In this document: positions 1 through 40,349 of the stretch, one piece after another
Position numbering within the stretch: the stretch's first letter is position 1
Layout: each line of letters opens with the position of its first letter
Origin: Candidatus Multivoradales bacterium
Lineage (GTDB): Bacteria; Acidobacteriota; Thermoanaerobaculia; Multivoradales; JAHEKO01
Reading direction: 5' to 3'
Assembly: GCA_965223155.1 (NCBI GenBank)
Contig: CBDCVR010000013.1
Span: forward strand, 160,001-224,000
Length of the DNA: 64,000 bases
Notes under the pieces: generated by a model
Databases searched by the model: none
Seen by the model: the letters and a program-made list of their open reading frames with translations, nothing else
Told to the model about the DNA's origin: nothing
Made by a program: the position numbers and the translations under genes

Positions 1-3000
1 GACCGGATGGAGAACTGGGCACCGCCGACGACGTCACCTTTCTGATCGCTCAGGCGAGCGGCGAGGCGGAGTTCCTTGTCGAAGGGCGCAAGGAAGGCAC
101 CCACATCGTCGAGATCGACATGGAGGGGACGCTCGACGGTCTTCCGGGCGGAGTTCGCCGGCTCAGCGGCTCGACTCGGGGCGCTGTCTTGGTGCGGGAC
201 CCGACGTTTGGCATCACCATTGCCCATCCCGACGTCGTCCGGGCCGACGAAGAATACGATTTGCGGCTGACCGTCGCCAACACTTCGAACGCGCCGGCGA
301 ATCTGGTCAGCATCCGGTTGCCGGGATCGAAGCTGATCGGCACGGAGCTGGTGGATCCGAGCGCGTACCAGCAGACCATCGACACGCTCTTGCCCGGCGA
401 GTCGGAGGTCGTGACCTTCCGGTTGCGGTCCCGCCTGACAGGCCGAGTGGTCTCGACATCGGCCCGGAGCGACCAGCACATCAGCCCGACGTTTGATCTC
501 ACGGTAGGGGTGGGCGAGAACGGGATTCCGCTCTCGCCGACGACTATCGTCCTTCCCGACGAGACTGAGACGCTGCCGCCGGAGCTCCTGCGGCATTCGC
601 TGGGGATGGTCGGGTTGGGGTTCTCGCTGGCCACTGCTTCCGGCAGCGTGCGCGACCCGAACCTGCCGTTCGTGACTCGGGGTACGGTGGATGAGCGGAT
701 CTACTACCTTCGCGAGGCGGCCAAGCACGCCGACATGGGAGAGGACCTCTTCGATGCCCTGGCGCTCTTGAGCCTGGATTGGAATGGCGCTCGCGATCGG
801 GACTGGGAGTGGGATCGTCTGCGGCGCACGACCCAGCGTGGCGTGAACCTGGCCGCGGCCTACGGCGAGGTATTCGACACCGAGGCACAGGCCGTGGGCG
901 TCGAGGCCATGTTCGACCGTTTCGTCGAGACGGCCGGTTTTCTGGCGCCGCTGCATTTTGCGGCGAGCGCCGGCCAGGGTTCGCGGGTCGAAGTCGTGAG
1001 CCGAGCTACGGGTTTCGGCCTGGCGACCGGGGTCGAGCTCGAGGAGCGTGCGCGCGACTTGCCTTTCGGCGAGTTGTATCCCTTAGCCGGAGGGGAGCTT
1101 GCCACCGTTACGGTTCCGGAGGAAACCGGGCACCGCGTCGTCCTGCGCTCGGACGGAACGGCGCCGGCGGATCTCTACGTGCTCGTCCCCGGCGATCCCC
1201 AGGAGCTGCGGGTGTTGCGCTGGCGGAACGTCGGTCTGGACGCCAGAGGCACCGCGGCTGTCGAGATTAGCCCCGAGGACCTCCAGCCGTTGCTATCGAT
1301 CGACCTGGACGGCGACGGCATGGAGGACGAGACGCGGGTACCCGAAGTCGAACTTCTGAGCCCGAGGCCGTTTCAAGTGATTGCCGCGGTGCAGCGTGAC
1401 GATCCGCCGTCCGGGCAGGTCGTGGAGGTCCTTTTCACCCGCGATGTCGCCACCGAAAGTCTGGTGCCGCGCGATGCGAATCGCTTCACCATCCCGGGCA
1501 AGTTCTCGAACGGCGGCGTGCTGCCCACCGATGAGGATCGCTTCGGCGTCGTCGCCGAGACTTTCGCGGGTCTCCGCAACAGTCGGATCGTGGAGGTGGT
1601 CTTCAACAACGGCATCAGCCCGCTGGTGGAGAACTACCTAACCGTGGATGACGTCGACGGCGTCCTCGGTGACGTCGTCACAGACGAGACCGTACTCGTG
1701 GACACGCGGGTGACGATGCCGGGCATCCAGCTCACCGGCCAGGTCTTCGGTCCCGACGGCGAGCCCGTTCCGTTTACCGAAGTCTCGCTCTTCGAGATCG
1801 ACTACAGTCATTTCAGCGAGGCCTGCCTCCAGCACAAGACGGCGGTGGTGCCGACCGACGGCGAGGGCCGGTTCCGTTTTGACTACGTGCGCTTGAAGGA
1901 CCGCTGCCCGAGCTCCTTCGTAATCCAAGGCGCGGATCCATCAACGGGTCTGGACGGATCCGCGGTCGGGACCGTCCGCTTCATCGACGACACCCAGTAT
2001 TTGGACATTGTGCTACTGGGCCGCGGCACGGTTCGCGGCCAGGTGCGGTTCGAAACCGGGGAGCCCGCGCCGTTTCACAGGGTTCGGGCTCTCAGCACGG
2101 TCTTCCAGGAGTTCCCTTCCACGGGCACTGACGAAAACGGCAACTACGAGCTACGGAACCTGCCCGTCGGGCCGGTGTCGCTCGTGACCCGAGACGCGGA
2201 CGGCAACATCGCGCAGGCGACCGTCGAGATTCGCACCGCCGGAGCTGTCGTGGAGAAGGATCTCGTCATCTTGAGGCGGGACGAGCCAACCGGCGAGGTC
2301 CGGGGAACGGTCTACGAGGTGGATGGCACGACGCCGGTGGCGAGGGCCTGGCTGGCCTTGTACGTGAACGGTGCAACCGCCGGGGTCGTTCAGAGCCGTG
2401 TGGACGGCGGCTTCGCCTTCCCCGAGGTTCCAGCCGGTCCCGCGGAGATCGAGGTCTTCGACTCGCGCACCAATCGGTCCGGTGGAGTCCAGTTCTTCGA
2501 GGTCCTGGCCGACAGGGTCAATGAGGTCGACATCATCCTGCGGAACGAGACCGGCTCGATCGTCGGACACGTCTATCGAGACACCGCTTCAGGCCTCGAG
2601 CCCGCTGGCGGTTTGATCGTCGCCGTGGCCCGGCAGTCAAACCACACGACGACGGCGGCTGACGGTTCGTACCGGCTGGACGACGTCCTCGTCGGTGACC
2701 TCACGATCACCGCGTACGACTTCGCCGCCAATACCAAGGCCTCGCGCAACCTGACTCTCCAGGTGGATGAGGAAGCGACGGGCTTCGACCTCGTCTTTTC
2801 GGTACCGGGAACGGGCTCGATCTCGGGGATCGTGCTCGGCACCGACGGGCTGCCGGTTCCGTCGGCTCCGGTGCGGCGGGCGATCGGCACCACCTACGAT
2901 CTCGAGACCTTCACCGCTCTGGACGGCACCTTCCAGCTCGAGGGAGTCGGCGTCGGAACGGTGAGCGAGCTCCACTCGTTCCAGGGGACGAGTGGCGGCA

Positions 3001-6000
3001 TTGCGACGGCGCGCGTTCGTTTCGAAGGCGACAACCCCTTTGTCGAGATTCGCTACAAGTCCGGGACGCTGCGCGGTCAGGTTTCCGCCCGCAACGAAAG
3101 CGGAGAGCTCCTCGGCGTCCGGTCGTTGGTTTCGTATCACACCGTCGTCCCGGTCCGGGGCTTGCTGCGGACGAATCCTCTGCCGGTCGAGATCGAGACC
3201 GACGATTCCGGCTTCTTCGAGATCTCCAACGTCATCGCCGGGCGCTACTCGATCGTCGTCTCGAACGCCTTTCATGGGGAGAAGACCGTCTCCGGTGACC
3301 TCCTGCAAAACGGTGAAGTGATCGATCATGAGTTCATCTTCGAGCGAAACGGCAGGATCACCGGAACCGTTTTCGACATCGACGGAGTGACGCCCGTGCT
3401 GGGAGTGGAGGTCGAGCTCGGTCATCCGAACTTCAGCCAATTCACGGCCTTCACCGACGAGAACGGCCGGTTCCTGTTCGATCTGGTGCCCCCCGTGGGC
3501 CATCCGTTCCCAATTGTCGCGACCCTGGATGGCGCGATCTATCGGGTGGCGCAGGTGTACGTGTGTTTCACCGAGTTCGGGCAGGAGCTCGACGTCGAGA
3601 TCGTCCTTCAGGAGCAGGGTGAAATCGCGGGTTGGGTCGAAGACGCCAACGGAGTGCGTGTGGCCGACGCCAACGTGACCCTTCAGGAAACCGTCTTTCC
3701 GAGGCGCCGGCTCACCCAGACCACCGACGCGGATGGGCGCTGGTCCTTTGCCAACGTCTTCGTGGGCACGGTTTCGCTGGGTGCTGTCTCGAATCAACTC
3801 GGTGGCCTCGGCGGCAAGACCGCGGTGGCCTTGAACGAGGAGGGCGACAGCCTTCAGGACATCGTGATCCGCCTCGAGCCGACCGGTGAGATCCACGGCC
3901 GCCTGTTGAGTCCGGTGGACGGCTCGCCGGTCCCGAGTGGGCAGGTCACGCTCTTTCGCTCCGGCGTGGGCCTCTTCGACTCGGCGACTACAGATGCCGA
4001 GGGCGGCTTCGTGTTCGAACTTCTTCCTTTGGGGGGCTACTGGATCCGGGCCTTCGATCCGTCGACCGGGCGCTTCGGCTCGTCGGAGTACTTGGAGGTG
4101 GCCGCCAACGGCGAGATCCTCGAGATCGACCTGACGCTTGGCGGCCGCGGCACGGTGGATGGGCACCTGACCGAACCGGGCTCGGGCCTAGTGGTGCCGG
4201 GAGCGTCCATCAAGCTGGTGGCGCAGGGCGGAGTGCCCTTGGTCGCCTACGCCAGCACGTCGGCGGCGGGACGGTTCGAGTTCCTTGGCATTCCGGAAGG
4301 CGACTTCACGCTCACGGCCCGGCTCGTGGACGATCTGCGGCAGGCGTTTGGCACCGGAGAGATCCTGGGCGAGGGCGACCTGGCGACCGTTGATCTGGTG
4401 CTGGACGAGCTCCTCACGGTGGTCGGCACCGCGTTCAATCCAGCGGGATTGTCGGTGGGACCGTTTGCGCCCGTGACCGTGCAGCTGACGCAGTTTCGCG
4501 GCACGGCAACGCAGGTGATCGGTGCTTCGGAGGTGAATCCTTACCGCTTTGACGGGGCGATCGCGGGCCTCACCTACCGGCTCGAGGCCCAGGAGATCGG
4601 AGGTCTGCATCGAGCGTTGCGCTCGGGCCGCTTGCCAGATGCCATCCCAGGTGCCGAGGTCGAGATCGATCTCGACATCGTCCCGTTGGGCAGCGTTCAC
4701 GTGACGGTGGTCGATTCGGTCGGGTTGCCTGTCACCGATGCCGAGGTGCGCGTGACTTCGAATGGCCTCTACCGGACGAATCAGGTGCGATTCACCGGCG
4801 CCGGCAACACGGCGGAGTTTCTCGACGTGGGCGGCGGCGTGATCACGGTCTACGCCGAGAGCGATGCCCTACAGCTGGGCGGAGTCGAGAGCGCGAGTCT
4901 CGATTCCGAGGGGCAGGCCTTGCAGCTCACCGTGACGCTGGAAGCCGCGGGCGCGCTTTCCGGAGACGTCGTACTTGCCGATGGCTTGACCCCCGCCGCG
5001 GGGGCAATCGTCGTGGTGGCGGCTTCCGGCCGGACCTTTACGGCGTTCGCGGGAGCCGACGGGTCGTTTGAGATGCCCTCGGTGCCGGCCGGGACGTTCC
5101 GCGCGGATTTCCAAGAAGCGGACGGGCCCGGGAGGCGCACGGTCTTCGGTTCGATCGCCGGGCCGGGCGACCAGATTGACTTGGGCTCGGTAGTTCTGGA
5201 CGACGAGGATCCGCTTGTGGTTTCGATCGAGCCAGCCGCGGGCTCCATCAACGTTCCCGCTGAAGCCGCCGTCGTGGTGCGCTTCAACGAGCCGGTGCAA
5301 CAAACCGCTCAGAACCGCAACCGGGTGATGGTGCGCGAGGTCGACTCCGGGAGCGGGATCTCCAGCACCGCTGTCTGGGGTGACGGAGGCCAGACTCTGA
5401 CGCTGACTCCGACAGCCGCGCTCGGCAGCTTCGAGGCCTATCGGGTCACTGTCAGCACCGGGATCGTGGATCCGGCGTACCGGGCGTCGACCGTGGCCGC
5501 GGCGGCGACCTTCACGACCCTGGACTACCTGCCGCCCGAGGTCGTGGCGATCGATCCGGCCCAAGACGCTCTCCAGGTGCCGGTCGACGCCCAGATCGTC
5601 GTGACGTTCTCGGAGCCCGTGGTGCTCGAGTCCCTGTCCGGTCCGGCCATCCAGCTGACCGACGTCACGACCGGTTCAGGCGTGTCCACGACCTTCATCC
5701 TGCTTCCGGCCGAGCGGGACGTCGTGATCACGCCCGTGGGGGGTCTCGAGCCGGAGCGCCGCTACAGTTTGACGCTGCAAGGAGTCAAAGACGCGGCTGG
5801 GAACTCCTCGGGTCTCTTCGTCTCGACCTTCGAGACCATCGACGAAACCGCGCCCGAGATTTCGCTGACCGTGCCGCCCGGTCCGTTCAGTCCGGGCGTG
5901 GGCTACTCGGTGAGCGCCGTCGGGGTGGCGAGTCCCGATCTGGCGTCGGTGTCATTCTTCAAGAACGACGAGCTCGTAACCAGCGACTCCGAGGCTCCCT

Positions 6001-9000
6001 TTGGCGCGACCATCGTGCCCACCGCGGCCGACGGAGCTGCCGGTAGCCTGGACGTCGTCGCCGCCGGCATCGATCGCGCGGGCAACGTCGGGCCCGAGGT
6101 GCGCGTCACTCGAGTCGTTGCCGAAGATCTGCCGCCGTCGGCCTCGTTCACCCTGGATCCCTCGACCGAGATTCTCCCGAACGCGGTCTTCGAGGTCCAT
6201 GCCGAGGCCCAGGACGACGTCGGCGTCGAGAAGATGGAGATCCTGGTGACCGGCGGGCTCGCGGATCAGTACGTTGTCTTTCCGAGCGGGGATCCGGCCA
6301 GTGCCACGGCCGTTCGCGTGTTTCAGGTCCCGGTGACGCCGGTCGAGTCGGAGGTGCGAGTCGTCGTCCGGGCCACGGATACCCTTGGACAGGTCATCGA
6401 GACCGCGCCTCAAGCGCTCGCCATCCGCGCCGACGTGGATCCGCCGGCGATCACGGTCTCGGAGCCGCAGGCCGGCGCCGCGATCACTTCGGGCGAGACC
6501 CTTGCGGTCGACGCCACCGTCACCGACAACGTCACCGTCGATCGCGTGACCTTCCGGTTCGCCGGAACCGAAGTCGTCGACACCGCGGCGCCGTACACGG
6601 CGAGCTTCGTGGCTCCCGAGGTCACGGTCGACACCGCCCTTGACGTCGAGGTCGAGGCTGTGGATCCGGCCGGCAATGCGGCCACGGAAGTCGTGGCGAT
6701 CACGATCGAGCCCCAGATCAACCCCGACGTCCCGACTGCCGTCATCACCTGCCCGGCAGACGGAGATCCGTTTCTGCCGGCGATCGACCTGCCCATCGCC
6801 TTTTCCATCGCCGACGATCAGCTGATCCAGAACTACAGGATTCTCGTGGACGGCCTCCTGCTGGAGGAGCATCTCGCGGTCGACCAGCTCGAGGTCATCG
6901 GCTCGGTGCTCTGGTCGCCGCCGGCAGGCGTGGCGCCGGGAACCACTGCCTTGGTCCGTGTCGAAGCCGAGGACTATGCTGGCAATCTCGGCTTCGTCGA
7001 GATCACGCTGACGGTGCCCGTGGGCACGGTACTGGGGGATGGCTCGGTGCTGGATTCGAGCTACGACGGGCAGAGCGTGGTGCTCGGCAGCGGCAGCTTC
7101 ACCGTCGCCGAACCCGTCGCCCTGACCGATCTGACCCTGATCCACGGCGCTAGTCTGACGGCGTCGGTTCCGGTCGAGATCGCTACGACCGGCTCGACTC
7201 GACTGGCCTGCGGCAGCGTCCTGGACGTGACGGGCCAGGGGTACGCGGGTGGTGCTTCGCCGGCGGAGCCCGAGGGTGGGGCTCCGGCCGGGATCACCGG
7301 CTCGACGCCGGACGCTGGCGGCAGCCACGGCGGCTCGGGGAACTTCCGGGCTGGTGGCCCCGCCGGGGAGGTCTACGACTCGGTGTACGTGCCGCAGCTT
7401 GCGGGCGGCGGCGGGGCGCATGACAACGACTCGTGCTGCGCCGGCGGTGCGGGCGGTGGGGTGGTGGAGCTGGTGGTGGGCGAGCTGGTGCTGGAAGGCT
7501 CGATCGTTTCCCAGGGCGAGTTTCCCGGGCACAACACGAGCCGTCCGAGCGGCGCCGGCGGCACGGTGCTGGTGGAGGCGGGGACGGTCCGGGGCTCGGG
7601 CACGATCGACGTGTCGGGCGGCGACTCGTCGGACTGCTCGGGCAGCCATACGGTGGGTGGCGGCGGAGGCGGCCGGGTGGCGCTCTATGTGGACGTCCTG
7701 GACGGGTTCGACCCGGCGGCGCAGGTGACGTCGGCGGGCGGTGCGATGACGTACTGCGGCACGACGATGGCGGGGTACGCGGCGCCTGGGACGGTGTACG
7801 TGTTCGAGACCGGCGATACCTACGGAGATCTCATCGTGGATGGGTTGGACCGAACGGGCAACGTGCCGGTGACCGAGCTTCCGGCGCTCGGTACGGGTAT
7901 GGTGGTCGGGACGGAGGTTGCGGGAGCGGACCTTTGGGTGACGGGTGACGGGCTCTTCCGGACGCGCTGGGTGGGGGCCTGGATGGTGTTGGAGGATGCT
8001 TCGGGCGCTGCGCTTGGCGGGTTCCAGGTGGCCGAAGTGGACGGCTCGGGCCGGGTGTTGCTGGCCGGAGCGGGCGGCGTGGTGGGCGCGACCGGCTACC
8101 GGGGCGAGTACCGGTTCGACGAGATCCGGCAGTTGCGGGGCGGGAGCCTGTCCACGATCGATCCGTTGCTGACGGGCGACGTGGTGATCGGCGCGGGGAA
8201 CGCGGTGCTGCCGCGGCGAATCGAGACGCAGAACCTGACGCTCTTGCCGGGAGCGGTGGCGCGTGCGGGCGCGGATGGGGTCTTCGAAGGCGCGGTGTCC
8301 GGCATCTTGACGATCGAAGCCGGAGCCTCGCTCGACGTGACGGGTCAGGGGTATGCGGGTGGTGCTTCGGCGGCGGAGCCCGAGGGTGGGGCTCCGGCCG
8401 GGATCGTGGGCTCGACGCCGGACGCTGGCGGCAGCCACGGCGGCTCGGGGAACTTCCGGGCTGGTGGCCCCGCCGGAGAGGTCTACGACTCGGTGTACGT
8501 GCCGCAGCTTGCGGGCGGCGGCGGGGCGCATGACAACGACACGTGCTGCGCCGGCGGTGCGGGCGGTGGGGTGGTGGAGCTGGTGGTGGGCGAGCTGGTG
8601 CTGGAAGGCTCGATCGTTTCCCAGGGCGAGTTTCCCGGGCACAACACGAGCCGTCCGAGCGGCGCCGGCGGCACGGTGCTGGTGGAGGCGGGGACGGTCC
8701 GGGGCTCGGGCACGATCGACGTGTCGGGCGGCGACTCGTCGGACTGCTCGGGCAGCCATACGGTGGGTGGCGGCGGAGGCGGCCGGGTGGCGCTCTATGT
8801 GGACGTCCTGGACGGGTTCGACCCGGCGGCGCAGGTGACGTCGGCGGGCGGTGCGATGACGTACTGCGGCACGACGGTGGCGGGGTACGCGGCGCCTGGG
8901 ACGGTGTACGTGTTCGAGACCGGCGATACCTACGGAGATCTCATCGTGGATGGGTTGGACCGAACGGGCAACGTGCCGGTGACCGAGCTTCCGGCGCTCG

Positions 9001-11573: not shown

Positions 11574-12325
11574 GGGGGTGGCAAGCGAGAGTGCGTGTCC
11601 GGAAGGGCCGGCCGGCGCGGGAGAGCCTCTTGGCCCGGTACGGCCGGATTGCCGTGCTGCTGGGGACGCTACTGACTCCCGCCGCCTGGGGACAGAGCTT
11701 TCTGCCGCCGGAGCCCGGCTCGAGCGTCTACCGGGATCTCACACTGGCCGCCGAGATCAGCGTGGACCTCTTCGAGGGACTGACGATGACGGGCAGCGCC
11801 CACTCCAACGGGAACCTGGAGTTGGCTCCGGGTGGTCTCGTGGACGGCACGGTCGAAGCCCATAGCTTTCTCGCCATCGAGGGCTCGGTGACTGGAGCCG
11901 CGACCGAAGGCGCCGCGCTCAGGGCGCTGCCGGTCCCCTATGACGCGGTCGCCGGTCGAGCTCTGGCGACGCGGGTGTTCGAAGAGTCGAGACGATTCGG
12001 CGGTGATGAGACCGTTGACGACGTTGTCTTCGTCGCCGGAGACGTTCGGTTCGAAGCGGGCCTTAGCGGGCAGGGAACCGTGATTGCCACTGGCGACATT
12101 GTGCTGGAGCGATGGAGCGGCGGCTCGACGGCGGCCGGCTCGCGCTTGGTGCTCGTTGCGCTCGGGCGCGTCGTTGTCGAGAAGGGACGCAGCTTCCGCG
12201 GCATCCTCGTTGCCGGCGGGGACGTGGAGCTTGAAGAGGACGTGGTCTTCCAGGGCACGGCCGTTGCGCACGGACGCCTCACCGTGGACGAAACGGTGAC
12301 GGTCACCTATGAGGACTTCCAGTAG
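11570..12325 (+). CDS. Putative secreted beta-solenoid-like protein, paralogous to the N-terminal domain of the downstream RHS protein
   Basis: GTG start overlaps the upstream TGA (GTGA). Hydrophobic segment followed by AWG-Q signal-like cleavage. Motif DDVVFVAGDVRF..GLSGQGTVIATGDI matches DDVLFVDGDVRF..GLNGRGTVIATGEI in the next gene. Confidence 0.75.
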   Translation: MRGWQARVRVRKGRPARESLLARYGRIAVLLGTLLTPAAWGQSFLPPEPGSSVYRDLTLAAEISVDLFEGLTMTGSAHSNGNLELAPGGLVDGTVEAHSFLAIEGSVTGAATEGAALRALPVPYDAVAGRALATRVFEESRRFGGDETVDDVVFVAGDVRFEAGLSGQGTVIATGDIVLERWSGGSTAAGSRLVLVALGRVVVEKGRSFRGILVAGGDVELEEDVVFQGTAVAHGRLTVDETVTVTYEDFQ

Positions 12326-12337
12326 GAATCGCCAGGC

Positions 12338-29836: not shown

Positions 29837-29851
29837 GCAGGGTTAGGGTCG

Positions 29852-31015: not shown

Positions 31016-31022
31016 CAATCTC

Positions 31023-34000
31023 GGCCTGTCCCGGGTGGTGACGTCCGAGTCTCCGGCGGCGGTGACGAGCTTTGCGTACGACTCGCTGTCGCGGATGACC
31101 TCGGAGTCGCACGCGGTCGGCGGCGGCTCCGGCTCGACCGCCAAGATCGTCTCCTACGCCCACGACCGGGTGGGTAGTGTCACGCGGGTGGGCTATCCGT
31201 CGGCCCACGAGGCGGCCCGGAGCTTCGATCCGCTGGACCGTCCGCAGGCGGTCCAGGCGGGAGCGGCTGGAGCGGGGAGCCAGGCGGTGGCCTACGGCTA
31301 CCGGGGTCCGGATCTGCTCCAGACCAAGGCCCTGGGCAACGGCGTTGCGGGCGAGATGGCCTTCGACGGGGCGAAGCGAGCGGTGGGCACCTCGTACAGC
31401 CGGCCTGGCTCCAGTGGTTCGAGTGGCTCCAGCGGCGGCTCCGGTACGGCCTTCTCGGAGACGATCGCCTGGAGCCCGCGGCATCTCAAGGTCGAGACCA
31501 CGCGGGCGGACCTGGGCGGGCGGGGGCTCCTCCTGGCCTACGACGGGGCGGGCCGGGTGACCGCGGCAGACAGCGTGCCCTCGCCCCAGACGGCCAACAA
31601 CACGACCCCTGCCGGAGGGACGGGATCCTCTGGAGGCGAGGGCTTCGCCTTCGCCTACGACGCCGCCGAGAACCTGCTGTCCCGCTCGCGCTCGACCGGC
31701 CTCGGCACCGAGACCTCGTCGCTGCCGCTCGATGGCTCGGGCAGGAACCGTCCGGGCGAAGTGGCTGGCACAGCCTTGACCTACGACGCCAACGGCAACC
31801 TCGTCCAGAAGGGCAACCAGCGCTTCCACTACGACTACCGGAACCGCCTGGCCCGGGTGAGCGACGCGGCCACCGGCGCCACGGTCGCCACCTACCTCTA
31901 TGACAACTTCAACCGGCGCCTGGCGAAGACCGTCGAGACGCAGGCCGGTCCCGAGACGACCGAGACCGTCTGGGGCGGCTGGCAGAACCTGGAAGAGTAC
32001 GTCTCGGACGGCAGCGGGAGCACTGGCTCAGCGACCAGGCTCGCCTCCCGGCGCACCTACGGTCTGGGCTTGGATGAGATCGTCCGCCAGGAGACCGATG
32101 TCGACGGCGACGGCACCCTCGAGACGGTGACCGTGCCGGTCTACGACTCGACCGGCAACCTGGTGCTTGCGACCGGCCCGGACGGGCGCACCCTCGAGCG
32201 CTACGAGTACACCCCGTACGGCGGCCGGACGACCTTCACCGACTTGACCGGTCCGCGCCTCGAACAGCTCCGCGCGGTCGAGGGCCCTGGCGGGAGCACA
32301 GGCGGCGGCGAGCTCTGGCTCGAGCTCTCGGAGGCGGCGTTACCGGTTCCACTCGAAGCGGCCGCAACCGCGGATACACTTACCGTCAGCGTGGATGGAG
32401 CAGTCGAGACCCTGACGGTGAGCCAGCCGGTCCTGACCGGCCGGGAGGCCCGGCGCCGCGTGGTGCTGGCGCTCGGCACGACCCCGGCGGCCGGTGCCGC
32501 CGTCGAGCTGACGATCCCGGGCTCCGCCCTGGTGGACGAGTCCGGCAACGAGGCGAGCGCCGACATCACCCAGAGCTTCACCTGGCCGGGAGCCGGTTCC
32601 GGTAGCTCGGGTAGCTCTGGCTCCGTCGTCTTCGACGACACCGACCCGCGCGTGGGCCTCGTCTCGACCTACCGGGACGGCAACCCGGTCCTGACCGTCC
32701 AGCTCTCCGAAGAGGCGGACCTGGCTGCTGCGGCCACCGCCATCACCCTCGACGGCGCTCCGACCTCCTGGACCCTCGAGCCCGACCGCTACACCCTGAG
32801 CAGCACAGCCAGCCTCCCGGCCGGCACCCACACCCTGGCAGTCTCGACCACCCCCCTCGACCTCGCCGGCCGCGGCCTCACCGAGCCCTTGGAGCTGACC
32901 TTCTCCGTGACCGCGAATCCGTCCGGCGCCGGCTGCGCCCCAGGCACCCTCTGCGGCTCCGCCAACACACCCTTCCTCTACGAAGGCCCCAAGGCGAACC
33001 AGGTCACGACCTCGACGGTAGGGAACGCCCACGGCTTCCACGGCCGGCCCGTCGATCCTGAGACGGGGTTGGTCTTCGTTCGGAATCGTTTCTATGACCC
33101 GGAGATGGGGCGGTTTATTTCGGACGACCCGCACCTCTACAGCGACGGACCGAACACCGGGCAGTTTGCGCTCAACAGCCCCTTCGTCCTGGGCGACTCG
33201 ATGGGGACGGCAGTCCACGGGTATGCGACGGCGCGGCTAACCCGAGGTCAGGCCCATGCCGGTTACGTGCACTTCGATCCGGTGAACCCGACGACGTTCG
33301 TGCCCCAGGACTCGGCTTCCCGGGGGTACGCTCCGTTTCGGTCGATGATGGCAGGCGTGATGGCAGGCAAGAGCCGTCTGGTGACGTTTGTCCATGGCTA
33401 CAACGTCGAGGAAGGTGGGCAGAAGGGATTCCGGGACGCCTTGACCCATCTCGACGACGGGTTTTCCGGGGCGGGAGTCCCACAGGACCTCTACGGTTTT
33501 ACCTGGAAGGGAGATCCGCTCGGGCGTCCGGCTTCGATGCCGTTCTTCTGGTGGTCGGAAGGCAACGCCGATCTCGCGGGCTATGCCTTCGGCCGCTACT
33601 TGATGCACACGCGCCAGGCTGCGGGCGCGGGACCGGACCTCTTTGCGATCACGCACAGCCTGGGGGCGCGAGTCGCGCTTCGCGGGTTGCAATTTCTCTC
33701 GACGCTGCGTAAGGGTGCGGACAATGCGGGCTCCCACCAGAACCTGGATGGATTGTTCATGCTGAATGCCGCAGTGACGAGGGGCTCGATCCTTCCAGGA
33801 GGCTTCTTGGAGAGCGCACTGGGGAACGTGAATGCGGTCGGCAACTTCCACAGCAAGAAGGACCCGGTGCTGGCCAGGGCCTTCCGGATCGCCAAGTTGG
33901 GGCGCAGGGCGCTGGGATCGGGCGCGATTAGGGAGGTTTTGCTGCGCGGCGGGGTTACGAACCTCAGAGACTTCGACATGCTGGACCCGAATGTCGCGGG

Positions 34001-34124
34001 TTCGCCTGTCATGACTCACGGGGATCATCTCCACCCTGGGCTGTGGGCAGCTGCGGGGGTGAATCACGATCAGCTATTTCGGACGCTGGAGGTGCGAATG
34101 GGTAAGGCATCGAGGAACCAGTGA
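31023..34124 (+). pseudogene. Orphan rhs-CT module (3' RHS core plus allelic alpha/beta-hydrolase tip) lacking a genuine 5' end
   Basis: Homology to the main gene begins abruptly at ~31023 (matches 26771, ggcctgtcccgggtggtgacgtccgag), 7 bp after the immunity-1 stop. The frame is intact to TGA at 34124, with a DSMG boundary and the same catalytic motifs. Confidence 0.85.
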
Positions 34125-35287
34125 CACAGAAGTTTCTGCTGTCGGCGACGACGCTGCTGTGGATCAGCTGTTCCACGATGGCGATGGGCTCCGATCCGTA
34201 CGGCCCGAAAGCGGTGAACTACCTGGATATCTCGGCGGACGGGAAGTATCTGGGGGGCGTGCGCCAAGACGGTTTCGCGTTCGTGATCGACTTAGAGAGT
34301 CGCAAGCGGGTGAGCAATCTTTCGCGCGGGAAGTTCCCGGGGCTCCCTGGGGGGCCGCGCGTCCAGTTTCTGGCGTTCCGGGGCTCCCGTGGGGAGGTCG
34401 TCTGGGATTGCCGTTCGGGGAGTGTTTGCGTGACGGACCTGGCGACGGGTGAGCGGGAGTTTCTGTTCGAGCACGACCCGCAAGACAACGTGATGGTGGG
34501 AGCGGTGTCGCGGGACGGAGAACGGATGGCGTTCGGTACGCGGGGGGAAAGAGTGTTTTCCTACGACGCGCGTACCGGCGAACAGGTGACGCTCAAGCCA
34601 AAGAACATCTGGGACCGGGTGGGGTTTCCGATGTACACACTGGAAGCGCCGCCGACGCTGGACTTCCTGATCACGGCCTCAGCGGAGGTCGGCGCAGAGG
34701 CTCTCTACGAGAAGAGGGAATCGACGCGGCGTCACGACGAGGAGCGATACCTGGAAGTGCGGCACCACGATGGGAGCTATCGACTTGAGCCGATGCATCG
34801 GGGGATCAACCTGTGGACCTGGGGGGACGACTGGCCAGAGATGATCGACGACGACTTCTCGGACAAGATTCGGGCGGACTGGTCCCGGGACGGACGGTTG
34901 GTGGCGATTAACCAACAGGGAGGTAGCTCCTACTTCGTATACGAGGTTGGCGAAGATGGGGTGCGATGGGTTACCGATCTTTCGAAGGCTGGCGCTCGTG
35001 GTTGTGATGGTATGCGGTTCCTGGATGTTGAGGGGCGGTACCTAGGCGTAGTTAGCTACGGCCACCGATTCATGGAGGTTATTGATCGAGCCACTGTCGA
35101 TGTGAACCAGTACGCTCAGGGGACGGATCTGAAGCTTCGTGAAAAGCCCGCCGGCGGCCGCCGGATGATGGTCGCTTACCCGGAGAAGGGCTGGGTCTTC
35201 CTCGGGCTTCGAAACGGTGGGATCGACTGGTACCAGTTCCAGTCGGAACCCAAGCTCTCGCTTCGGCACATCGCGACTCTCCGGTAA
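34121..35287 (+). CDS. Putative immunity protein 2: WD40-like lipoprotein paralog
   Basis: GTG overlaps the orphan stop (GTGA). Signal ...LLWISC. Shares AMGSDPYGP..VNYLD and the entire C-terminal part with immunity 1. Confidence 0.72.
   Translation: MTQKFLLSATTLLWISCSTMAMGSDPYGPKAVNYLDISADGKYLGGVRQDGFAFVIDLESRKRVSNLSRGKFPGLPGGPRVQFLAFRGSRGEVVWDCRSGSVCVTDLATGEREFLFEHDPQDNVMVGAVSRDGERMAFGTRGERVFSYDARTGEQVTLKPKNIWDRVGFPMYTLEAPPTLDFLITASAEVGAEALYEKRESTRRHDEERYLEVRHHDGSYRLEPMHRGINLWTWGDDWPEMIDDDFSDKIRADWSRDGRLVAINQQGGSSYFVYEVGEDGVRWVTDLSKAGARGCDGMRFLDVEGRYLGVVSYGHRFMEVIDRATVDVNQYAQGTDLKLREKPAGGRRMMVAYPEKGWVFLGLRNGGIDWYQFQSEPKLSLRHIATLR
34841..35287 (+). repeat. 447-bp near-identical copy of 30569..31015 (3' ends of the two immunity genes)
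   Basis: Both run from atgatcgacgacgacttctcggac to cgactctccggtaa. Only two synonymous differences were noticed (ggtcggctg vs ggacggttg). Confidence 0.93.
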
Positions 35288-35443
35288 CACGGCTCGAGCC
35301 TCAGCCCGGCCCGGCACAGGCGTCTCAAGGAAGTCATCGAAGAGCGGTCCGAGCCCAAGAAGCGGTCCTCATCCATGGGAGTTCGAGAGCCTAGGTGTAG
35401 ATGTGGACTCTGACGCAGTGGCCTGAAAAATGGACACTATCTA

Positions 35444-35959
35444 ATGAGCCAAGAGTCGTTCGAGAAAAAGGGTCGCAAGGGAGAAGAGGCCCTCAACCGG
35501 TGGCTTAGCCGGCAGGGGATGAGTTACGTTGCGGTTTGTCAGGCTTCTGAGACCTTCTCTCCCTTGTTTGGCACTGATCTCAAGAGGCCAGACTTCCTGG
35601 TGTTGCTGGACTCGATCGGCCTGATTGCCGTAGATGCAAAGTTCCACGAACCTTGGAATGGAACCTACTCGCTGGGCTATGAGGACGAGATCCAGAGGGT
35701 GGTCACTTTCGAGCGGCTTTTCCGGTTGCCCTTTTGGTATGCCTATATGAGTAGCGAAGAGGGTCGCCTTTGGTATTGGGTCAGTGCCTTGAAGGCACTG
35801 GAGGTCGGCAAGAAGAAGAAGCGCAAGAAGGACGGCAAGGAGTTCTTGTCCATAGATCTGGACCACTTCTTGCGGATTGAAGATCGCTTTGATTTTGGCA
35901 AACTCTATACGCAGAAGATGAACAGCCTACGGCGGCTGCGGAATGCTCCTGCGGACTAG
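35444..35959 (+). CDS. Small PD-(D/E)XK (restriction-endonuclease-like) fold protein
   Basis: Motif order G..GEE (helix), RPDFLV, IAVDAK fits the E..PD..(D/E)xK catalytic pattern. Lower GC, Lys-rich patch, GGA-containing RBS-like sequence upstream. Confidence 0.6.
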   Translation: MSQESFEKKGRKGEEALNRWLSRQGMSYVAVCQASETFSPLFGTDLKRPDFLVLLDSIGLIAVDAKFHEPWNGTYSLGYEDEIQRVVTFERLFRLPFWYAYMSSEEGRLWYWVSALKALEVGKKKKRKKDGKEFLSIDLDHFLRIEDRFDFGKLYTQKMNSLRRLRNAPAD

Positions 35960-35990
35960 TTGTTCTCCTCTGATGGCAGTGGGTCAGGCT

Positions 35991-38900
35991 CCGAGTACGC
36001 CTACAACGACTACGGCCAGGTGACGCGGGCCACGAACCCGAACGGCAATGTGACCGAGTACTCGTACTTTGCGAGCGGTCCGAGCCTTGGCTACCTCCAG
36101 GAGACGGTTGCGGCACCGGGCGTGCTGGATCTAGCCACCCGGTACACGACCGACGCCCGGGGCAACGTCACGGCGGTGACGGATCCGCGGGGAGTACGAC
36201 ACACGACGGTCTACAACGAGCTCGACTGGCGGGTGGCCTCGACCCAGGCGGCGTCGGGGGCGTCGTCCACGCCGGCCCTGGGCTATACCTCGAGCTACCT
36301 CTACGACGCCAACGGCAATCTCGTAACCGAGCGGCAGCCGTTCGGGGAGACGGGCTCGGCGGCGACCGAGACCCGGTACACCTACGGTGCCTTGAGCGAG
36401 CTGGTGACGACGACGCGGGAGATCGAAGCGGGCGGCGCCGTCACCGTCGAGAGGCGGGCCTACGACCCCAACTACAACCTGGAGTCGGTGATCCACCCGG
36501 AGGGGAACGAGACCCGCAACGTCTACGGTCCGCGCAACCTCCTCCTCTCGACGACGCGAGGCTTCGGCTCGCCGGAGGCGGTCGTTGACTCCTATGTCTA
36601 CAACGCCGACCGCGAGCGGACGGCCTACACCAACGGGCGCTTGCAGAGCTTTGCGACCGAGTACGACGGCTACGGGCGGGTGGCTCGGGTGGTGGACCCC
36701 CTGGGCAATGCGACGGTGTCGAAGTACGACGCCAACGGCAACGTGGTCGAGTCCGAGCACTACGACCCGGCGGGGACGCTCCTGGCGGAGTCGGCCGGCG
36801 AGTACGACCTTCTGAACCGGAAGACGGCGAGCCTCGAGGCCCTCTTCGACGCCGGGGATCCTACGACCGAAGGGATCCTGCGCTCTGCGACCGTCTACGA
36901 TGCGGCCTCGAACGTCCTCCAGACGACCGACGCCTTGGGTCGGACGACGGTGTCGCGCTACGACTCAGCCGAGCGCCTGGTCGAGACCATCGACCCGGCC
37001 GGCAACCGGCTGGTGCGCACCCTCGACGCCAACGGCAACGCCACCTTGACGGAGTCGGTCGAGACGACCCCGGACGGCGGCACGGTGACGGTTCCGTACC
37101 AGACGGCCTACGATGCCTTGAACCGGCCGGTCTCGCGCACCGACGCTTTGGGGAACATGACCCGGACGGCCTACGACGCGCGCTCGAACGCGATCCGGCA
37201 AACGGACGCCGAAGGGCACGTGACGGCGTCGTTCTACGACGGTCTCGACCGGCGGATCCGGGCGGTGCGTCCGGAGGGGATCTCGATCGAGTCCGCCTTT
37301 GACGGCAACTCCCGGCTGACCCGGTACCGGGACGCTCGGGGCAACGAGACGAGCTGGACCTACGATGCCCTGGACCGGAAGGCGACGACGACCTATCCGG
37401 ACCAGACGTCCGAGAGCTACGCCTACGACGGCGCCGGCAACGTGACCCAGGTTGCCGACGCCAACGGCTCGACCGTGACCCAGACCTACGACGCGGCGAA
37501 CCGGCTGACGGCACGCTCGGTGGCGGCGGGTCCGGGCATCGAAGGCATCACGACCGAGACCTACGGCTACGACGGCCTGTCCCGGGTGGTGACGTCCGAG
37601 TCCCCGGCGGCGGTGACGAGCTTTGCCTACGACTCGCTGTCGCGGATGACCTCGGAATCGCGTGCGGTCGGCGGCGGCTCCGGCTCGACCGCTAAGATCG
37701 TCTCCTACGCCCACGACCGGGTGGGCTCGGTGACCCGTGCCACCTACCCGTCGGGGCACGAGGCGGCCCGGACGTTCGATCCGCTGGATCGGCCGCTGGG
37801 GGTCCAGGCGGGAACGGCTGGAGCGGGGAGCCAGGCCGTCTCCTACGGCTACAGGGGCCCGGACCTGGTCCAGACCAAGGCCCTGGGCAACGGCGTTGCG
37901 GGCGAGATGGCCTTCGACGGGGCGAAGCGAGTGGTGGGCACCTCGTACAGCCGGCCTGGCTCCAGTGGTTCGAGTGGCTCCAGCGGCGGCTCCGGTACGG
38001 CCTTCTCGGAGACGATCGCCTGGAGCCCGCGGCATCTCAAGGTCGAGACCACCCGGGCGGACCTGGGCGGGCGCGGGCTCCTGCTGGCCTACGACGGGGC
38101 GGGCCGAGTGACCGCGGCAGACAGCGTGCCCTCGCCCCAGACGGCCAACAACACGACCCCTGCCGGAGGGACGGGGTCCTCTGGAGGCGACGGCTTTGCC
38201 TTCGCCTACGACGCGGCCGAGAACCTCCTGTCCCGCTCGCGCTCGACCGGCCTCGGCACCGAGACCTCGGCCCTGCCGCTCGACGGCTCGGGCCGGAACC
38301 GCCCCGGTGAGGCGGACGGCCAGTCCCTGACCTACGACGCCAACGGGAACCTCGTCCAGAAGGGCAACCAGCGCTTTCACTACGACTACCGGAACCGCAT
38401 CGCCCGGGTGAGCGACGCGACCACCGGCGCCACGGTCGCCACCTACCTCTACGACAACTTCAACCGGCGTCTGGCGAAGACCGTCGAGACGGCGGAGGGC
38501 CCCAAGACCACCGAGACCGTCTGGGGCGGCTGGCAGAACCTGGAAGAGTATGTCTCTGCCGCGGGTGGAGGCCAGCGGCTTGCCTCCCGGCGCACCTACG
38601 GGATGGGCCTCGACGAGATTGTCCGCCAGGAGACGGACGTCGACGGCGACGGCACCCTCGAGACCGTGACCGTGCCGGTCTACGACTCGACCGGCAACCT
38701 GGTGCTTGCGACCGGGCCGGACGGCCGCACCCTGGAGCGCTACGAGTACACCCCGTACGGCGGCCGCACGATCTTTACCGACTTGACCGGTCCGCGCCTC
38801 GAACAGCTCCGCGCGGTTGGGAGCACAGGCGGCGGCGAGCTCTGGCTCGAGCTCTCCGAGGCGGCGTTACCGGTTCCACTCGAAGCGGCCGCAACCGCGG

Positions 38901-39174
38901 GTACACTTGCCGTCAGCGTGGACGGTACCGTCGAGACCCTGACCGTGAGCCAGCCGGTCCTGACCGGCCGGGAGGCGCGAAGACGCGTGGTGCTGGCGCT
39001 CGAGACGACCCCGGTTGCCGGTGCTGCCATCGAGGTGACGATCCCGGCCGAAGCCCTGGTGGATGAGTCCGGCAACGAGGCCACTACCGACATCACCCAG
39101 AGCTTCACCTGGCCGGGAGCCGGCGCTGGTAGCGCGACCTCGGTCATCCTCGATGACACCGACCCACGCGTGGG
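35991..39174 (+). pseudogene. Truncated orphan RHS core: near-identical copy of main gene 25188..28371 with no toxin tip
   Basis: Constant offset of 10803 bp at both ends (ccgagtacgcctacaac ... ccacgcgtggg) with only scattered substitutions. Homology breaks at 39175 and the frame stops at 39202. Confidence 0.88.
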
Positions 39175-40329: not shown

Positions 40330-40349
40330 GGTTGCGGAGTCTAGCTCGG

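What the first reader, a model, noticed from the sequence alone, without database searches (positions are those of the whole stretch)
1..39174. Candidate undescribed Sec-exported giant adhesin-RHS contact toxin system with lipase tip, lipoprotein immunity and orphan cassettes
Seen: closely spaced or overlapping same-strand genes: giant Ig/Gly-rich protein, small secreted solenoid protein, 5832-aa signal-peptide RHS protein, immunity-like lipoprotein, then orphan rhs-CT/immunity and a truncated core. No PAAR, VgrG, Hcp, TpsB or Tc A/B genes are present in the window. Established: diderm RHS toxins are usually delivered by T6SS or as TcC-type ABC toxins, while Sec-exported RHS (WapA) is typical of monoderms. 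This organism has lpxB/msbA and so is a diderm. Inference: the two giants plus the small paralog form a surface-displayed multi-protein stalk delivering an encapsulated hydrolase by an as yet unassigned route.
Basis: partly seen in the sequence, partly recalled or inferred. Interest (0 to 1): 0.82.

Follow-up and report, generated by a model that had tools for sequence, protein, structure and literature searches.

The report
Giant Sec-exported RHS toxin operon
A two-membrane bacterium that lacks a type VI secretion system encodes a 5,832-residue signal-peptide RHS toxin with a lipase-like tip, a lipoprotein antidote and spare copies, and in related genomes this toxin gene regularly follows a second giant surface-protein gene, which may bear on how such toxins are delivered.

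Summary
Window 1-39202 carries, on one strand and tightly spaced: a giant secreted Ig/Gly-rich protein (ORF1, about 4,180 aa, start upstream of the window), a 251-aa secreted paralog of the next gene's N-terminus (ORF2), a 5,832-aa signal-peptide RHS protein (ORF3), a lipoprotein beta-propeller-like immunity candidate, an orphan rhs-CT/immunity pair, and an IS-truncated 99% copy of the RHS core.

Corrections: the orphan carries the same toxin type (93% identical), not a different tip. The tip is a divergent DUF900-like alpha/beta hydrolase.

The genome (98.7% complete) has no TssC, Hcp, VgrG, PAAR or SpvB.

New result: in a 200-genome sample of the same order, 54 genomes hold an ORF3-like body. 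Of these, 50 also hold an ORF1-like N-terminus. In 28 genomes ORF1 lies 14-27 kb upstream on the same strand, across 10 families. Tips vary among the relatives I read. ORF2 and the ice-binding-fold, pilin-related N-domain occur only here.

Sec-dependent RHS and teneurin-like toxins of diderms are already in print, so this is a new variant: a conserved two-giant, T6SS-independent polymorphic toxin operon. The route across the outer membrane is unknown.

The parts
1..11573 (+). ORF1. A giant secreted protein of about 4,180 aa that starts about 960-990 nt upstream of the window. It has a conserved N-terminal region of about 1,000 aa with no known family, then CarboxypepD_reg x7, Big_5 x2 and Big_7, then the Gly-rich modules. 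It is the conserved partner of the RHS giant.
   Evidence: homologues upstream of ORF3-like genes:
7224..11573 (+). Four tandem Gly/Cys-rich modules within ORF1 (370, 370, 370 and 340 aa). Modules 1 and 2 are 97% identical. They match no Pfam or PHROG family.
   Evidence: relatives hold several copies each
11570..12325 (+). ORF2. A 251-aa secreted protein that is a paralog of the ORF3 N-domain (38% identity). Found in this locus only.
12338..29836 (+). ORF3. A 5,832-aa RHS polymorphic toxin with a signal peptide.
12467..13111 (+). ORF3 N-domain (aa 44-258). A right-handed beta-helix of the ice-binding (IBP-1/DUF3494) fold. By sequence it is related to the DUF7305 part of PilX/TadG-like pseudopilins.
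13112..23887 (+). ORF3 Ig-like stalk (Glucodextran_B, Big_13, Big_5) and a family-specific middle region of about 2,100 aa with no known family. The middle region is 40-50% identical in the relatives' giants.
23888..27961 (+). RHS shell. The DUF6531 plug lies at 23912-24115, followed by the YD repeats.
27962..28750 (+). A Big_5-like insert of about 262 aa between the last YD repeat and the Rhs-associated core. It is also present in relatives.
28751..28939 (+). Rhs-associated core. The final cleavage motif is degenerate: the sequence reads GDAMGT where relatives have DPLGL-type motifs.
28940..29833 (+). C-terminal toxin of about 298 aa. A divergent DUF900-like alpha/beta hydrolase with FVHGYN, THSLG (Ser 5679) and an aligned Asp motif.
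29852..31015 (+). Imm1. A 387-aa lipoprotein candidate (lipobox VGGC) with weak WD40-type beta-propeller matches. This is the presumed immunity protein.
31022..34124 (+). Orphan rhs-CT. A 90% DNA copy of 26770-29816 with the same CT type.
34121..35287 (+). Imm2. 73% identical to Imm1. The last 449 nt are 99.6% identical, and the N-terminal part is much more diverged.
35444..35959 (+). A 171-aa ORF in a low-GC patch (0.59). It hits phrog_28481 and, weakly, HYExAFE. Probably a foreign insert.
35960..39202 (+). Truncated RHS core. A 99.2% copy of 25188-28371 that ends at 39174.
39406..40518 (-). IS integrase (rve, rve_3) next to the truncated copy.

Best explanation
This is a T6SS-independent polymorphic RHS toxin operon of the Sec-dependent kind.

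Shown:
- ORF3 has an N-terminus that reads as a cleavable signal peptide.
- It carries a long Ig-like stalk, a DUF6531 plug, a YD-repeat cage and an Rhs-associated core.
- Its tip of about 298 aa is a remote relative of DUF900 alpha/beta hydrolases.
- The next gene encodes a lipobox protein that is duplicated together with the tip.
- A promoterless-looking orphan copy and an IS-truncated copy follow.
- The gene for a second giant secreted protein (ORF1) lies immediately upstream in many related genomes. The relatives' tips differ from one another.

Inferred:
- ORF1, ORF2 and ORF3 cross the inner membrane through Sec.
- The tip is an esterase or phospholipase that acts on the envelope of a neighbouring cell.
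- Imm1, tethered as a lipoprotein in the periplasm, protects the producer, as Tli proteins do for Tle lipases (the Tle/Tli comparison is recalled, not from a call).
- The orphan copies serve as a store for recombination.
- ORF1 forms a surface fibre that holds or presents the RHS giant.

Not assigned: passage through the outer membrane. The only candidate machines found are an unlinked T2SS-like cluster and a type IV pilus.

ORF2 and the ice-binding-fold N-domain are a local addition. They come from a family of large Ig-stalk surface proteins whose public records are titled Acidobacteriota (7 of 8) and Binatia (1 of 8).
For: RHS identity:
- RHS_repeat x14 (E 4e-69) and DUF6531 at 45.2 bits.
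- YD_repeat_2x x8 and Rhs_assc_core at 54.8 bits against a cut-off of 32.5.
- 14 solved Rhs or teneurin-like chains match at E <= 1e-3.

No T6SS or Tc:
- 0 matches for TssC, PAAR, VgrG, SpvB and Hcp in a genome that is 98.66% complete.
- TssC is found in 1 of 5 relatives that carry the pair, and there on another contig.

Diderm: LpxB and an MsbA-like exporter are in the window.

Tip:
- ESM Atlas nearest clusters are DUF900, score 0.95 with 207 of 256 features shared.
- A profile-profile alignment against 13 DUF900 domains from the phylum sample gives probability 97.4% and E 9e-12 over 165 columns. It aligns FVHGYN, HSLG/HSMG and the Asp motif.
- A DUF900-family enzyme is a bactericidal phospholipase A (preprint 10.64898/2026.06.10.730825, passages).

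Toxin and immunity travel together:
- The CT is duplicated at 93% identity and the immunity gene at 73%.
- Both are equally rare in the 5.8-billion-cluster collection: 2 homologues each.

Conserved pair, in a sample of 200 genomes of the order:
- The ORF3 middle region is in 54 genomes.
- The ORF1 N-terminus is in 67.
- 50 of the 54 hold both.
- In 28 genomes (29 loci, 10 of 12 sampled families) ORF1 lies 14-27 kb upstream on the same contig and strand. This count is my reading of the rows.
- Five loci were read in full. In 3 of 3 loci with clear gene ends, the gap or overlap between the two genes is 4-7 nt.

Tips differ among relatives.

Precedents for Sec/T2SS RHS in diderms: PMC3482391 and PMC7259588 section 21.
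Against: - No signal-peptide predictor was run. Cleavage sites and lipoboxes were read by eye.
- The Pfam DUF900 model itself does not match the tip.
- The AF2 model of the tip failed (pLDDT 32), so the fold and the catalytic His are unconfirmed.
- The C-terminal cleavage motif is degenerate here, so release of the tip may differ or be lost.
- No outer-membrane translocator is linked to the locus, either here or in the relatives I read.
- Adjacency shows a shared operon, not a physical complex.
- Genomes of one order are kin, so the counts are not independent events.
- No RNA run holding the locus was listed, so expression is not shown.
Confidence: 0.72

Rival explanations
1. Soluble bacteriocin. 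ORF3 is released into the medium through the unlinked T2SS-like machine, like Xanthomonas Bcn-A. ORF1 is merely a co-transcribed adhesin with no role in delivery.
For: - Bcn-A (an RHS-family protein of 1,398 aa) is active in the supernatant and loses activity in an xpsD mutant (PMC7259588, abstract and section 21).
- The genome holds a secretin next to T2SSE and T2SSF genes.
- Zhang et al. 2012 treat signal-peptide RHS toxins as Sec/T2SS cargo.
Against: - A folded protein of about 600 kDa with a closed RHS cage is far larger than Bcn-A.
- The strict ORF1-ORF3 adjacency, with 4-7 nt between the genes across 10 families, is hard to explain without a shared function.
- The T2SS-like cluster is on another contig.
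Confidence: 0.2
2. Pilus- or pseudopilus-borne toxin. The N-domain, a relative of the beta-solenoid of minor pilins, docks ORF3 (with ORF2) on the tip of a type IV pilus or T2SS pseudopilus. The pilus then carries it through the secretin.
For: - The N-domain matches proteins with PilX_N or Tad_C plus DUF7305 at whole-library E values of 6e-9 to 1e-7.
- Its model aligns with the minor pilin ComZ (6qvi) at Z 16.1, rmsd 2.8 over 195 residues.
- PilQ/PilM/PilN and a second secretin system exist in the genome.
Against: - The domain follows an ordinary signal peptide and lacks the pilin N-terminal helix.
- Its best fold matches are free-standing ice-binding proteins, at Z 19-21.5.
- The relatives' RHS giants lack this domain altogether, so it cannot be the general route.
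Confidence: 0.06
3. Tc-like two-part toxin. ORF1 plays the role of an A component, forming a translocation device into which the RHS cage of ORF3 docks.
For: - There are two giant genes in one operon, one of them an RHS cage.
- ORF1 has a conserved N-terminal region of about 1,000 aa with no known family.
Against: - No SpvB, VRP1 or other TcA/TcB family was found in ORF1 or ORF3.
- ORF1 is built of Ig-like and Gly-rich beta modules in varying numbers, unlike the helical TcA shell (recalled).
- A periplasm-facing lipoprotein immunity gene points to bacterial targets.
Confidence: 0.07
4. Adhesion or kin recognition rather than killing. The giants are teneurin-like surface receptors and the tip is vestigial.
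For: - The cleavage motif is degenerate.
- The orphan keeps the same tip instead of a new one.
- Teneurin-like YD proteins are linked with social bacteria (PMC13018210, abstract and section 6).
Against: - The FVHGYN, THSLG and Asp motifs are retained in both copies and in the 2 metagenomic homologues.
- A matched immunity gene is kept and duplicated.
- Relatives carry diverse tips with intact cleavage motifs.
Confidence: 0.1

Closest known systems
Sec/T2SS-type RHS polymorphic toxins of diderms (Zhang et al. 2012, PMC3482391; Xanthomonas perforans Bcn-A, PMC7259588)
   Same: - Signal peptide, RHS repeats, variable C-terminal toxin, downstream immunity gene and orphan cassettes.
- An alpha/beta-hydrolase tip with an HSxG motif on RHS proteins is listed for Acidobacteria as Tox-ABhydrolase2.
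- No T6SS is needed. Bcn-A depends on the T2SS.
   Different: - About four times longer (5,832 aa against 1,398).
- About 3,800 aa of stalk and unknown domains lie before the cage.
- An insert of about 262 aa precedes the Rhs core.
- It is paired with a conserved giant partner gene. I found no mention of such a partner in the passages read or in my searches.
Bacterial teneurin-like proteins (TLPs; Raoelijaona et al. 2026, PMC13018210)
   Same: - Sec-targeted YD-shell toxins.
- Variable N-terminal adhesion modules, polymorphic C-termini and a downstream immunity gene.
- No obvious delivery machinery (sections 6 and 9 and Discussion passages).
- ORF3's cage matches the solved teneurin-like chains 9ifo and 9pt5 at E 3e-8 and 9e-8.
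   Different: - The TLP fold is defined by FN-plug, NHL propeller and YD shell. ORF3 has a DUF6531 plug and no detectable NHL.
- Gram-negative TLPs are predicted to be lipoproteins (SPII). ORF3 looks like an SPI substrate.
- ORF3 is more than twice as long.
- The upstream giant partner is not described there.
WapA of Bacillus subtilis (Sec-dependent RHS of monoderms)
   Same: Signal peptide, YD repeats, a C-terminal toxin and an immunity gene; used on contact between cells (recalled; cited within PMC7259588).
   Different: The host here makes lipid A (LpxB), so an outer membrane must be crossed. There is no cell-wall anchor.
T6SS Rhs effectors and Tc (ABC) toxins
   Same: The RHS cage with plug and Rhs-associated core.
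   Different: - There is no PAAR, VgrG, Hcp or TssC in the genome.
- There is no SpvB/TcB.
- No TcA family was found in ORF1.
MafA/MafB of Neisseria (a constant N-domain plus an accessory secreted protein)
   Same: A lineage-specific constant domain directly follows the signal peptide of the toxin, and a small secreted protein is encoded just upstream. Zhang et al. propose that this anchors the toxin on the surface (PMC3482391, passage).
   Different: - ORF2 is a paralog of the N-domain, not a lipoprotein.
- There is no sequence relation.
- Only this one locus has the arrangement.
Tle/Tli lipase-immunity pairs; cinquedea (a DUF900-family bactericidal phospholipase A)
   Same: A GxSxG-type alpha/beta-hydrolase tip paired with a periplasm-facing lipoprotein immunity candidate. 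The DUF900 relation comes from profile comparison.
   Different: - Tle effectors travel by T6SS (recalled).
- Cinquedea is a free secreted archaeal enzyme.
- This tip is caged in an RHS shell and is too diverged for the Pfam model.

Membership tests
RHS/YD-repeat polymorphic toxin | YD (RHS) repeats forming the shell | tested here: met
   RHS_repeat gives 14 stretches at E 4.3e-69. YD_repeat_2x gives 8 stretches. Solved Rhs cages match at E down to 7e-32.
RHS/YD-repeat polymorphic toxin | N-terminal plug and Rhs-associated core domain | tested here: met
   DUF6531 scores 45.2 bits against a cut-off of 24.1. TIGR03696 scores 54.8 bits against 32.5.
RHS/YD-repeat polymorphic toxin | PxxxxDPxGL-type autoproteolysis motif at the core/toxin border (the motif is recalled) | tested here: not met
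   The own sequence reads PFVLGDAMGT and the orphan reads PFVLGDSMGT. Relatives G151, G257 and the G193 orphan have DPLGL, DSLGL and DPLGL. The YYDPEMGRF core motif is kept.
RHS/YD-repeat polymorphic toxin | Variable C-terminal toxin with a cognate downstream immunity gene and orphan modules | tested here: met
   Tips differ among 6 relatives' copies. The CT/immunity pair is duplicated here. Binding of the immunity protein to the toxin was not tested.
T6SS Rhs effector | PAAR or VgrG-linked N-terminus and a T6SS in the genome | tested here: not met
   0 matches for PF05488, PF05954, PF05943 and PF05638 in the 98.66%-complete genome.
Tc (ABC) toxin | TcB SpvB domain and a TcA component | tested here: not met
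   PF03534 gives 0 matches in the genome. No TcA or VRP1 family was reported in ORF1 or ORF3.
CDI / two-partner secretion | TPS domain on the exoprotein and an adjacent TpsB | tested here: not met
   No TPS family was reported in ORF1, ORF2 or ORF3. The only ShlB match is weak (27.1 bits) and lies on contig C15.
Bacterial teneurin-like protein (TLP) | FN-plug + NHL beta-propeller + YD shell | tested here: inconclusive
   The YD shell is present. No NHL or FN-plug family was reported. The middle region has no match among solved chains. The authors' HMMs are not on hand, and their supplementary data could not be seen.
DUF900 (PF05990) alpha/beta hydrolase | Match to the family model; Ser-Asp-His triad with an HSxG elbow | tested here: inconclusive
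   The Pfam model gives no match. hhalign against 13 DUF900 domains gives probability 97.4% and E 9e-12, with the Ser elbow and Asp aligned. ESM Atlas scores 0.95. The His is not aligned. The AF2 model is unusable.
Ice-binding protein fold (IBP-1 / DUF3494) | Right-handed beta-helix with a flanking helix | tested here: met
   The AF2 model has pLDDT 85. VIA-align gives Z 19-21.5, rmsd 2.4-3.0 over 183-202 residues. This is fold only: no Ice_binding Pfam match for ORF2 or ORF3, and no claim of ice binding.
PilX/TadG-like pseudopilin (PilX_N + DUF7305) | Pilin-type N-terminal hydrophobic helix followed by the DUF7305 beta-helix | tested here: not met
   The beta-helix is related: E 6e-9 to 1e-7 to proteins of which 4 of 8 scanned carry DUF7305. 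There is no PilX_N match, and an ordinary signal peptide stands in its place.

The most novel reading that the evidence does not exclude
The ORF1-like giant is the missing delivery or presentation partner of Sec-dependent RHS and teneurin-like toxins in diderms. On this reading the two giants, made from one coupled operon, build a T6SS-independent contact weapon on the cell surface. In this genome the weapon has also captured a pilin-related beta-solenoid cap (ORF2 plus the N-domain) from an unrelated family of surface proteins.
Probability: 0.3. Interest if true: 0.8.

Novelty: new variant of a known kind. Interest (0 to 1): 0.6.

Why it matters
How Sec-exported RHS and teneurin-like cages leave a two-membrane cell and reach a target is an open question. 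The 2026 structural paper on bacterial teneurin-like toxins says so itself (PMC13018210, Discussion passage).

This locus belongs to a family found in about a quarter of the sampled genomes of its order. In that family the caged toxin is regularly preceded by a second giant secreted protein. That gives a concrete candidate that can be tested genetically for the missing step.

It also shows that RHS bodies of 4,600-6,200 aa are a recurring design in this order, not a one-off. Finally, it adds a divergent DUF900-like tip with a beta-propeller-like lipoprotein as its likely antidote.

Tried and rejected
- **Complex prediction.** ORF3 N-domain (46-270) with ORF2 (42-251) gave 'no answer', score 0.00. 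This is no evidence either way.
- **AF2 of the tip.** With a 4-row alignment the model had pLDDT 32, so no fold search was made.
- **Sequence searches of the tip.**
  - No Pfam match.
  - No PDB match with the single sequence or the profile.
  - No homologue among proteins of 582-1,854 aa.
- **DUF900 model on the own genome.** At E <= 10 there was one weak match elsewhere and none in the window.
- **PHROGs.** Nothing for the ORF1 module, the ORF1 N-terminus, ORF2 or the ORF3 middle region.
- **PDB sequence search.** Nothing for the ORF1 N-terminus or the ORF3 middle region.
- **Gene B.** This large secreted gene follows N-domain genes in 6 of 7 public loci with enough downstream DNA. Its profile found nothing in ORF1-3, and tblastn found no gene B in the own genome. 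So that pair is not the same as ORF1/ORF3.
- **Promoter and terminator scan of 29500-41500.** 0 promoter-like sites; 7 terminator-like sites against 6.4 expected. Uninformative.
- **Inverted repeats around the IS.** Only weak pairs.
- **Sequencing runs.**
  - No RNA holder was listed.
  - Contigs of two samples of one study cover 30 of 30 and 28 of 30 bins of 28400-41000.
  - They are short and do not span the repeats.
- **Taxon.** No tool names the genome, and kinship of the named MAGs to it is not told. ESM Atlas look-alikes of the ORF1 module are commonest in Myxococcota.
- **Supplementary tables.** Those of PMC13018210 and PMC3482391, which may list related proteins, could not be seen.


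Full report
**1. The observation**

ORF listing and translation confirm a same-strand array:
- ORF1 at 3..11573, open at the 5' end of the window.
- ORF2 at 11570..12325.
- ORF3 at 12338..29836 (5,832 aa).
- Imm1 at 29852..31015.
- An rhs-CT fragment whose homology runs 31022-34101.
- Imm2 at 34121..35287.
- A 171-aa ORF at 35444..35959.
- An RHS core fragment at 35960..39202.
- An rve-type IS integrase on the other strand at 39406..40518.

Gene spacing is tight: a 4-nt overlap, then gaps of 12 nt and 15 nt. The window is C13:160001-224000 of a 4.0-Mb genome in 15 contigs that is 98.66% complete. ORF1's frame is open from C13:158779. GTG codons at 159010-159040 precede a hydrophobic stretch ending in AQA. 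ORF1 is therefore about 4,180 aa long with a signal-peptide-like start.

A large serine recombinase gene lies directly upstream, and a relaxase gene about 17 kb further up. Nothing like an outer-membrane translocator is there. LpxB and an MsbA-like exporter lie downstream in the window, so the organism makes lipid A.

**2. Anatomy of the proteins**

ORF1 has seven CarboxypepD_reg domains, two Big_5 domains and one Big_7 domain. Four Gly/Cys-rich modules of 340-370 aa follow, 67-97% identical to each other. They match no Pfam, NCBIfam or PHROG family. ESM Atlas look-alikes of the module are unnamed clusters, commonest in Myxococcota and Acidobacteriota.

ORF3 reads as follows:
- A signal-peptide-like start.
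- An N-domain of about 215 aa.
- About 1,500 aa of Ig-like repeats (Glucodextran_B x11, Big_13 x6).
- A middle region of about 2,100 aa with only Big_5 and CarbopepD_reg_2 matches.
- DUF6531, then 14 RHS repeats.
- The Rhs-associated core.
- A tip of 298 aa.

The cage matches 14 solved Rhs and teneurin-like chains.

Two oddities stand out. About 262 aa of Big_5-like sequence sit between the last YD repeat and the core, where the genome's other RHS proteins have about 15 aa. The final cleavage motif is degenerate (GDAMGT), whereas relatives have DPLGL-type motifs.

**3. The tip and its antidote**

The tip has no Pfam or PDB match by sequence. It has only two homologues in 5.8 billion clusters. 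One of them is a fragment of an RHS protein with the same insert and core.

ESM Atlas places the tip next to DUF900 clusters, score 0.95. I tested that lead. A profile of the four tip sequences, compared with 13 DUF900 domains taken from genomes of the phylum sample, gives hhalign probability 97.4% and E 9e-12 over 165 columns. The FVHGYN motif, the Ser elbow (THSLG against HSMG) and an Asp motif align. The Pfam model itself does not match. The AF2 model failed at pLDDT 32. I therefore call it a DUF900-like alpha/beta hydrolase with moderate confidence. A DUF900-family enzyme was recently shown to be a bactericidal phospholipase A (preprint 10.64898/2026.06.10.730825, passages read).

Imm1 begins with a lipobox-like VGGC. 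It has only weak WD40-type matches below their cut-offs. Like the tip, it has just two real homologues.

**4. The copies**

- DNA 31022-34101 is 90% identical to 26770-29816.
- DNA 35991-39174 is 99.2% identical to 25188-28371 and stops at the IS.
- The last 449 nt of imm1 and imm2 are 99.6% identical.

The orphan encodes the same tip (93% identical). Imm2 is 73% identical to Imm1, with most differences in the first 240 residues. These are spare or diverging copies of one toxin type, not a store of different tips.

Contigs of two samples of one study cover the region, but they are too short to span the repeats.

**5. Secretion machinery**

The genome gives 0 matches for TssC, PAAR, VgrG, SpvB and Hcp. 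There is one weak ShlB match on another contig.

Its two secretins sit on contig C14. One is a PilQ with PilM/PilN neighbours. The other lies beside T2SSE and T2SSF genes.

The genome also holds a second RHS cluster on C15. It has three proteins of about 1,600 aa that share a signal peptide and a constant Cys-rich N-domain. They have canonical cleavage motifs and three different tips, together with orphans and IS copies. All RHS proteins of this T6SS-less genome therefore look Sec-dependent.

**6. The N-domain and ORF2**

ORF2 is 38% identical to the ORF3 N-domain. A full HMMER scan of 1.84 billion representatives finds only 155 relatives at E <= 1e-3.

Most are the N-termini of proteins of 1,300-2,900 aa. 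All 20 of these that I scanned are Ig-stalk proteins, and none has RHS. None of the 150 listed hits matches the ORF3 RHS part by BLAST. Small stand-alone forms exist; one is 53% identical to ORF2.

The distant hits of about 350 aa are PilX/TadG-like pseudopilins. Of 8 scanned, 4 carry DUF7305, one carries PilX_N and one carries Tad_C.

The AF2 model of the domain is good (pLDDT 85). It aligns with ice-binding proteins at Z 19-21.5 and with the minor pilin ComZ at Z 16.1. The next match is at Z 8.5.

Eight public loci with the domain come from MAGs titled Acidobacteriota (7, of which 3 are Thermoanaerobaculia) and Binatia (1). There the domain-bearing gene is followed by another large secreted gene in 6 of 7 loci with enough downstream DNA. 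That gene is unrelated to ORF1.

**7.

Among 30 close relatives, the N-domain family occurs in one genome and ORF1-type modules in five.

Reading those loci showed the real pattern. In G169 and G176 an ORF1-like giant is followed at once by a giant signal-peptide RHS protein. That protein is 41-50% identical to ORF3 through the late Ig region, the middle region and the cage. It has no N-domain and no ORF2. The same holds in G151 (same genus; 5,756 aa then 5,753 aa), G257 and G193.

In a sample of 200 genomes of the order:
- The ORF3 middle region is found in 54 genomes.
- The ORF1 N-terminal 1,000 aa is found in 67.
- The Gly-rich module is found in 49.
- 50 of the 54 hold both the ORF3 middle region and the ORF1 N-terminus. 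The four exceptions (G217, G240, G296, G347) are assemblies of 20 to 740 contigs, 70-93% complete.

By my reading of the listed rows, ORF1 lies 14-27 kb upstream of the ORF3 middle region, on the same contig and strand, in 28 genomes (29 loci). These belong to 10 of the 12 sampled families. Two families have none (0 of 1 and 0 of 33 genomes). These genomes are kin, so the counts are not independent events.

TssC is missing from 4 of 5 pair-bearing relatives, two of which are single-contig genomes.

The relatives' tips differ. One has a weak Lipase_3 match, two have weak DUF6765 matches, one has an Stv match above cut-off, and two have nothing. Three of them have intact cleavage motifs.

**8. 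Reading**

The conserved unit is the pair ORF1 + giant Sec-RHS with a polymorphic tip and a downstream immunity gene. ORF2 and the N-domain are a local acquisition at exactly the ORF1/ORF3 junction. A complex prediction for ORF2 with the N-domain gave no answer.

The class is not new:
- Zhang et al. 2012 list Sec/T2SS as the commonest route for polymorphic toxins, RHS included. They also list an HSxG alpha/beta-hydrolase tip on RHS proteins in Acidobacteria (PMC3482391, passages).
- Bcn-A of Xanthomonas is an RHS bacteriocin that depends on the T2SS (PMC7259588, abstract and section 21).
- Sec-targeted teneurin-like YD-shell toxins with immunity genes were described in 2026. Their delivery is stated to be unknown (PMC13018210; abstract, sections 6 and 9, and Discussion passages).

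My six literature searches found no description of the giant partner gene, of RHS bodies of this size, or of DUF7305. The searched library is limited and supplements were closed.

**9. Verdict**

This is a new variant of a known kind: a conserved, T6SS-independent operon of two giant genes encoding an RHS toxin. The outer-membrane route and the role of ORF1 are unknown.

Noticed in passing
own genome, contig C15:950028-982284 (part held as L039); also small contigs C2 and C9: A second RHS cluster. It holds three signal-peptide RHS proteins of about 1,600 aa that share a constant Cys-rich N-domain. They have canonical DPxGL-type cleavage motifs and three different tips. Orphan fragments and identical IS copies (353-aa transposase) lie among them. 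The small contigs look like unresolved copies of the same cluster.
   Followed up: partly
L035/L036 (G090:C53:5292-22652, - strand): Another genome of the phylum sample encodes a 5,786-aa signal-peptide giant without RHS repeats. It has fn3, Ig-like and beta-helix domains and a DUF900 match near the C-terminus. Three genes follow whose products end in ankyrin-like sequence. This suggests DUF900 tips also ride on non-RHS giants.
   Followed up: partly
L006, L008, L009, L010, L012, L013, L043: In public MAGs, the gene for an N-domain + Ig-stalk protein (1,300-1,700 aa) is followed by a conserved second large secreted gene, often with a small gene in between. This is a separate two-gene module of unknown function.
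   Followed up: partly
protein P0061 (296 aa): Here the N-domain is followed directly by a stretch 50% identical to part of the ORF1 Gly-rich module. It is the only fusion seen that links the two families.
   Followed up: no
window 35444-35959 and the low-GC patch 34001-36000: A 171-aa ORF sits between imm2 and the truncated RHS copy. It matches phrog_28481 (E 4e-7) and, weakly, the HYExAFE family. Local GC is 0.59 against about 0.68 around it.
   Followed up: partly
L001 (C13:140001-160000): Upstream of ORF1 lie a large serine recombinase, a MobA/VirD2-type relaxase with a TraI middle domain, two AAA_21 (AbiEii-like) ATPases and a zeta-toxin-like kinase. The toxin locus may sit on or beside an integrated mobile element. 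Even within the genus it is patchy: the ORF3 middle region is in 1 of 4 same-genus genomes.
   Followed up: partly
L038 (C14:1084001-1104000): A secretin with TPR and cohesin domains lies beside T2SSE (with an MshEN domain) and T2SSF genes and several small unannotated ORFs. This is an unusual T2SS/MSHA-like cluster.
   Followed up: no
window 7224-9443: ORF1 modules 1 and 2 are 97% identical over 370 aa, a sign of recent tandem duplication. Relatives' ORF1-like frames reach 7,751 aa, and one search reports up to 9 module matches per genome.
   Followed up: partly
window 28556-29231 in run X4: A contig from the second sample differs at 15 positions just before and within the start of the tip. 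The imm1 contigs of both samples show none. This suggests strain variants of the toxin end.
   Followed up: no
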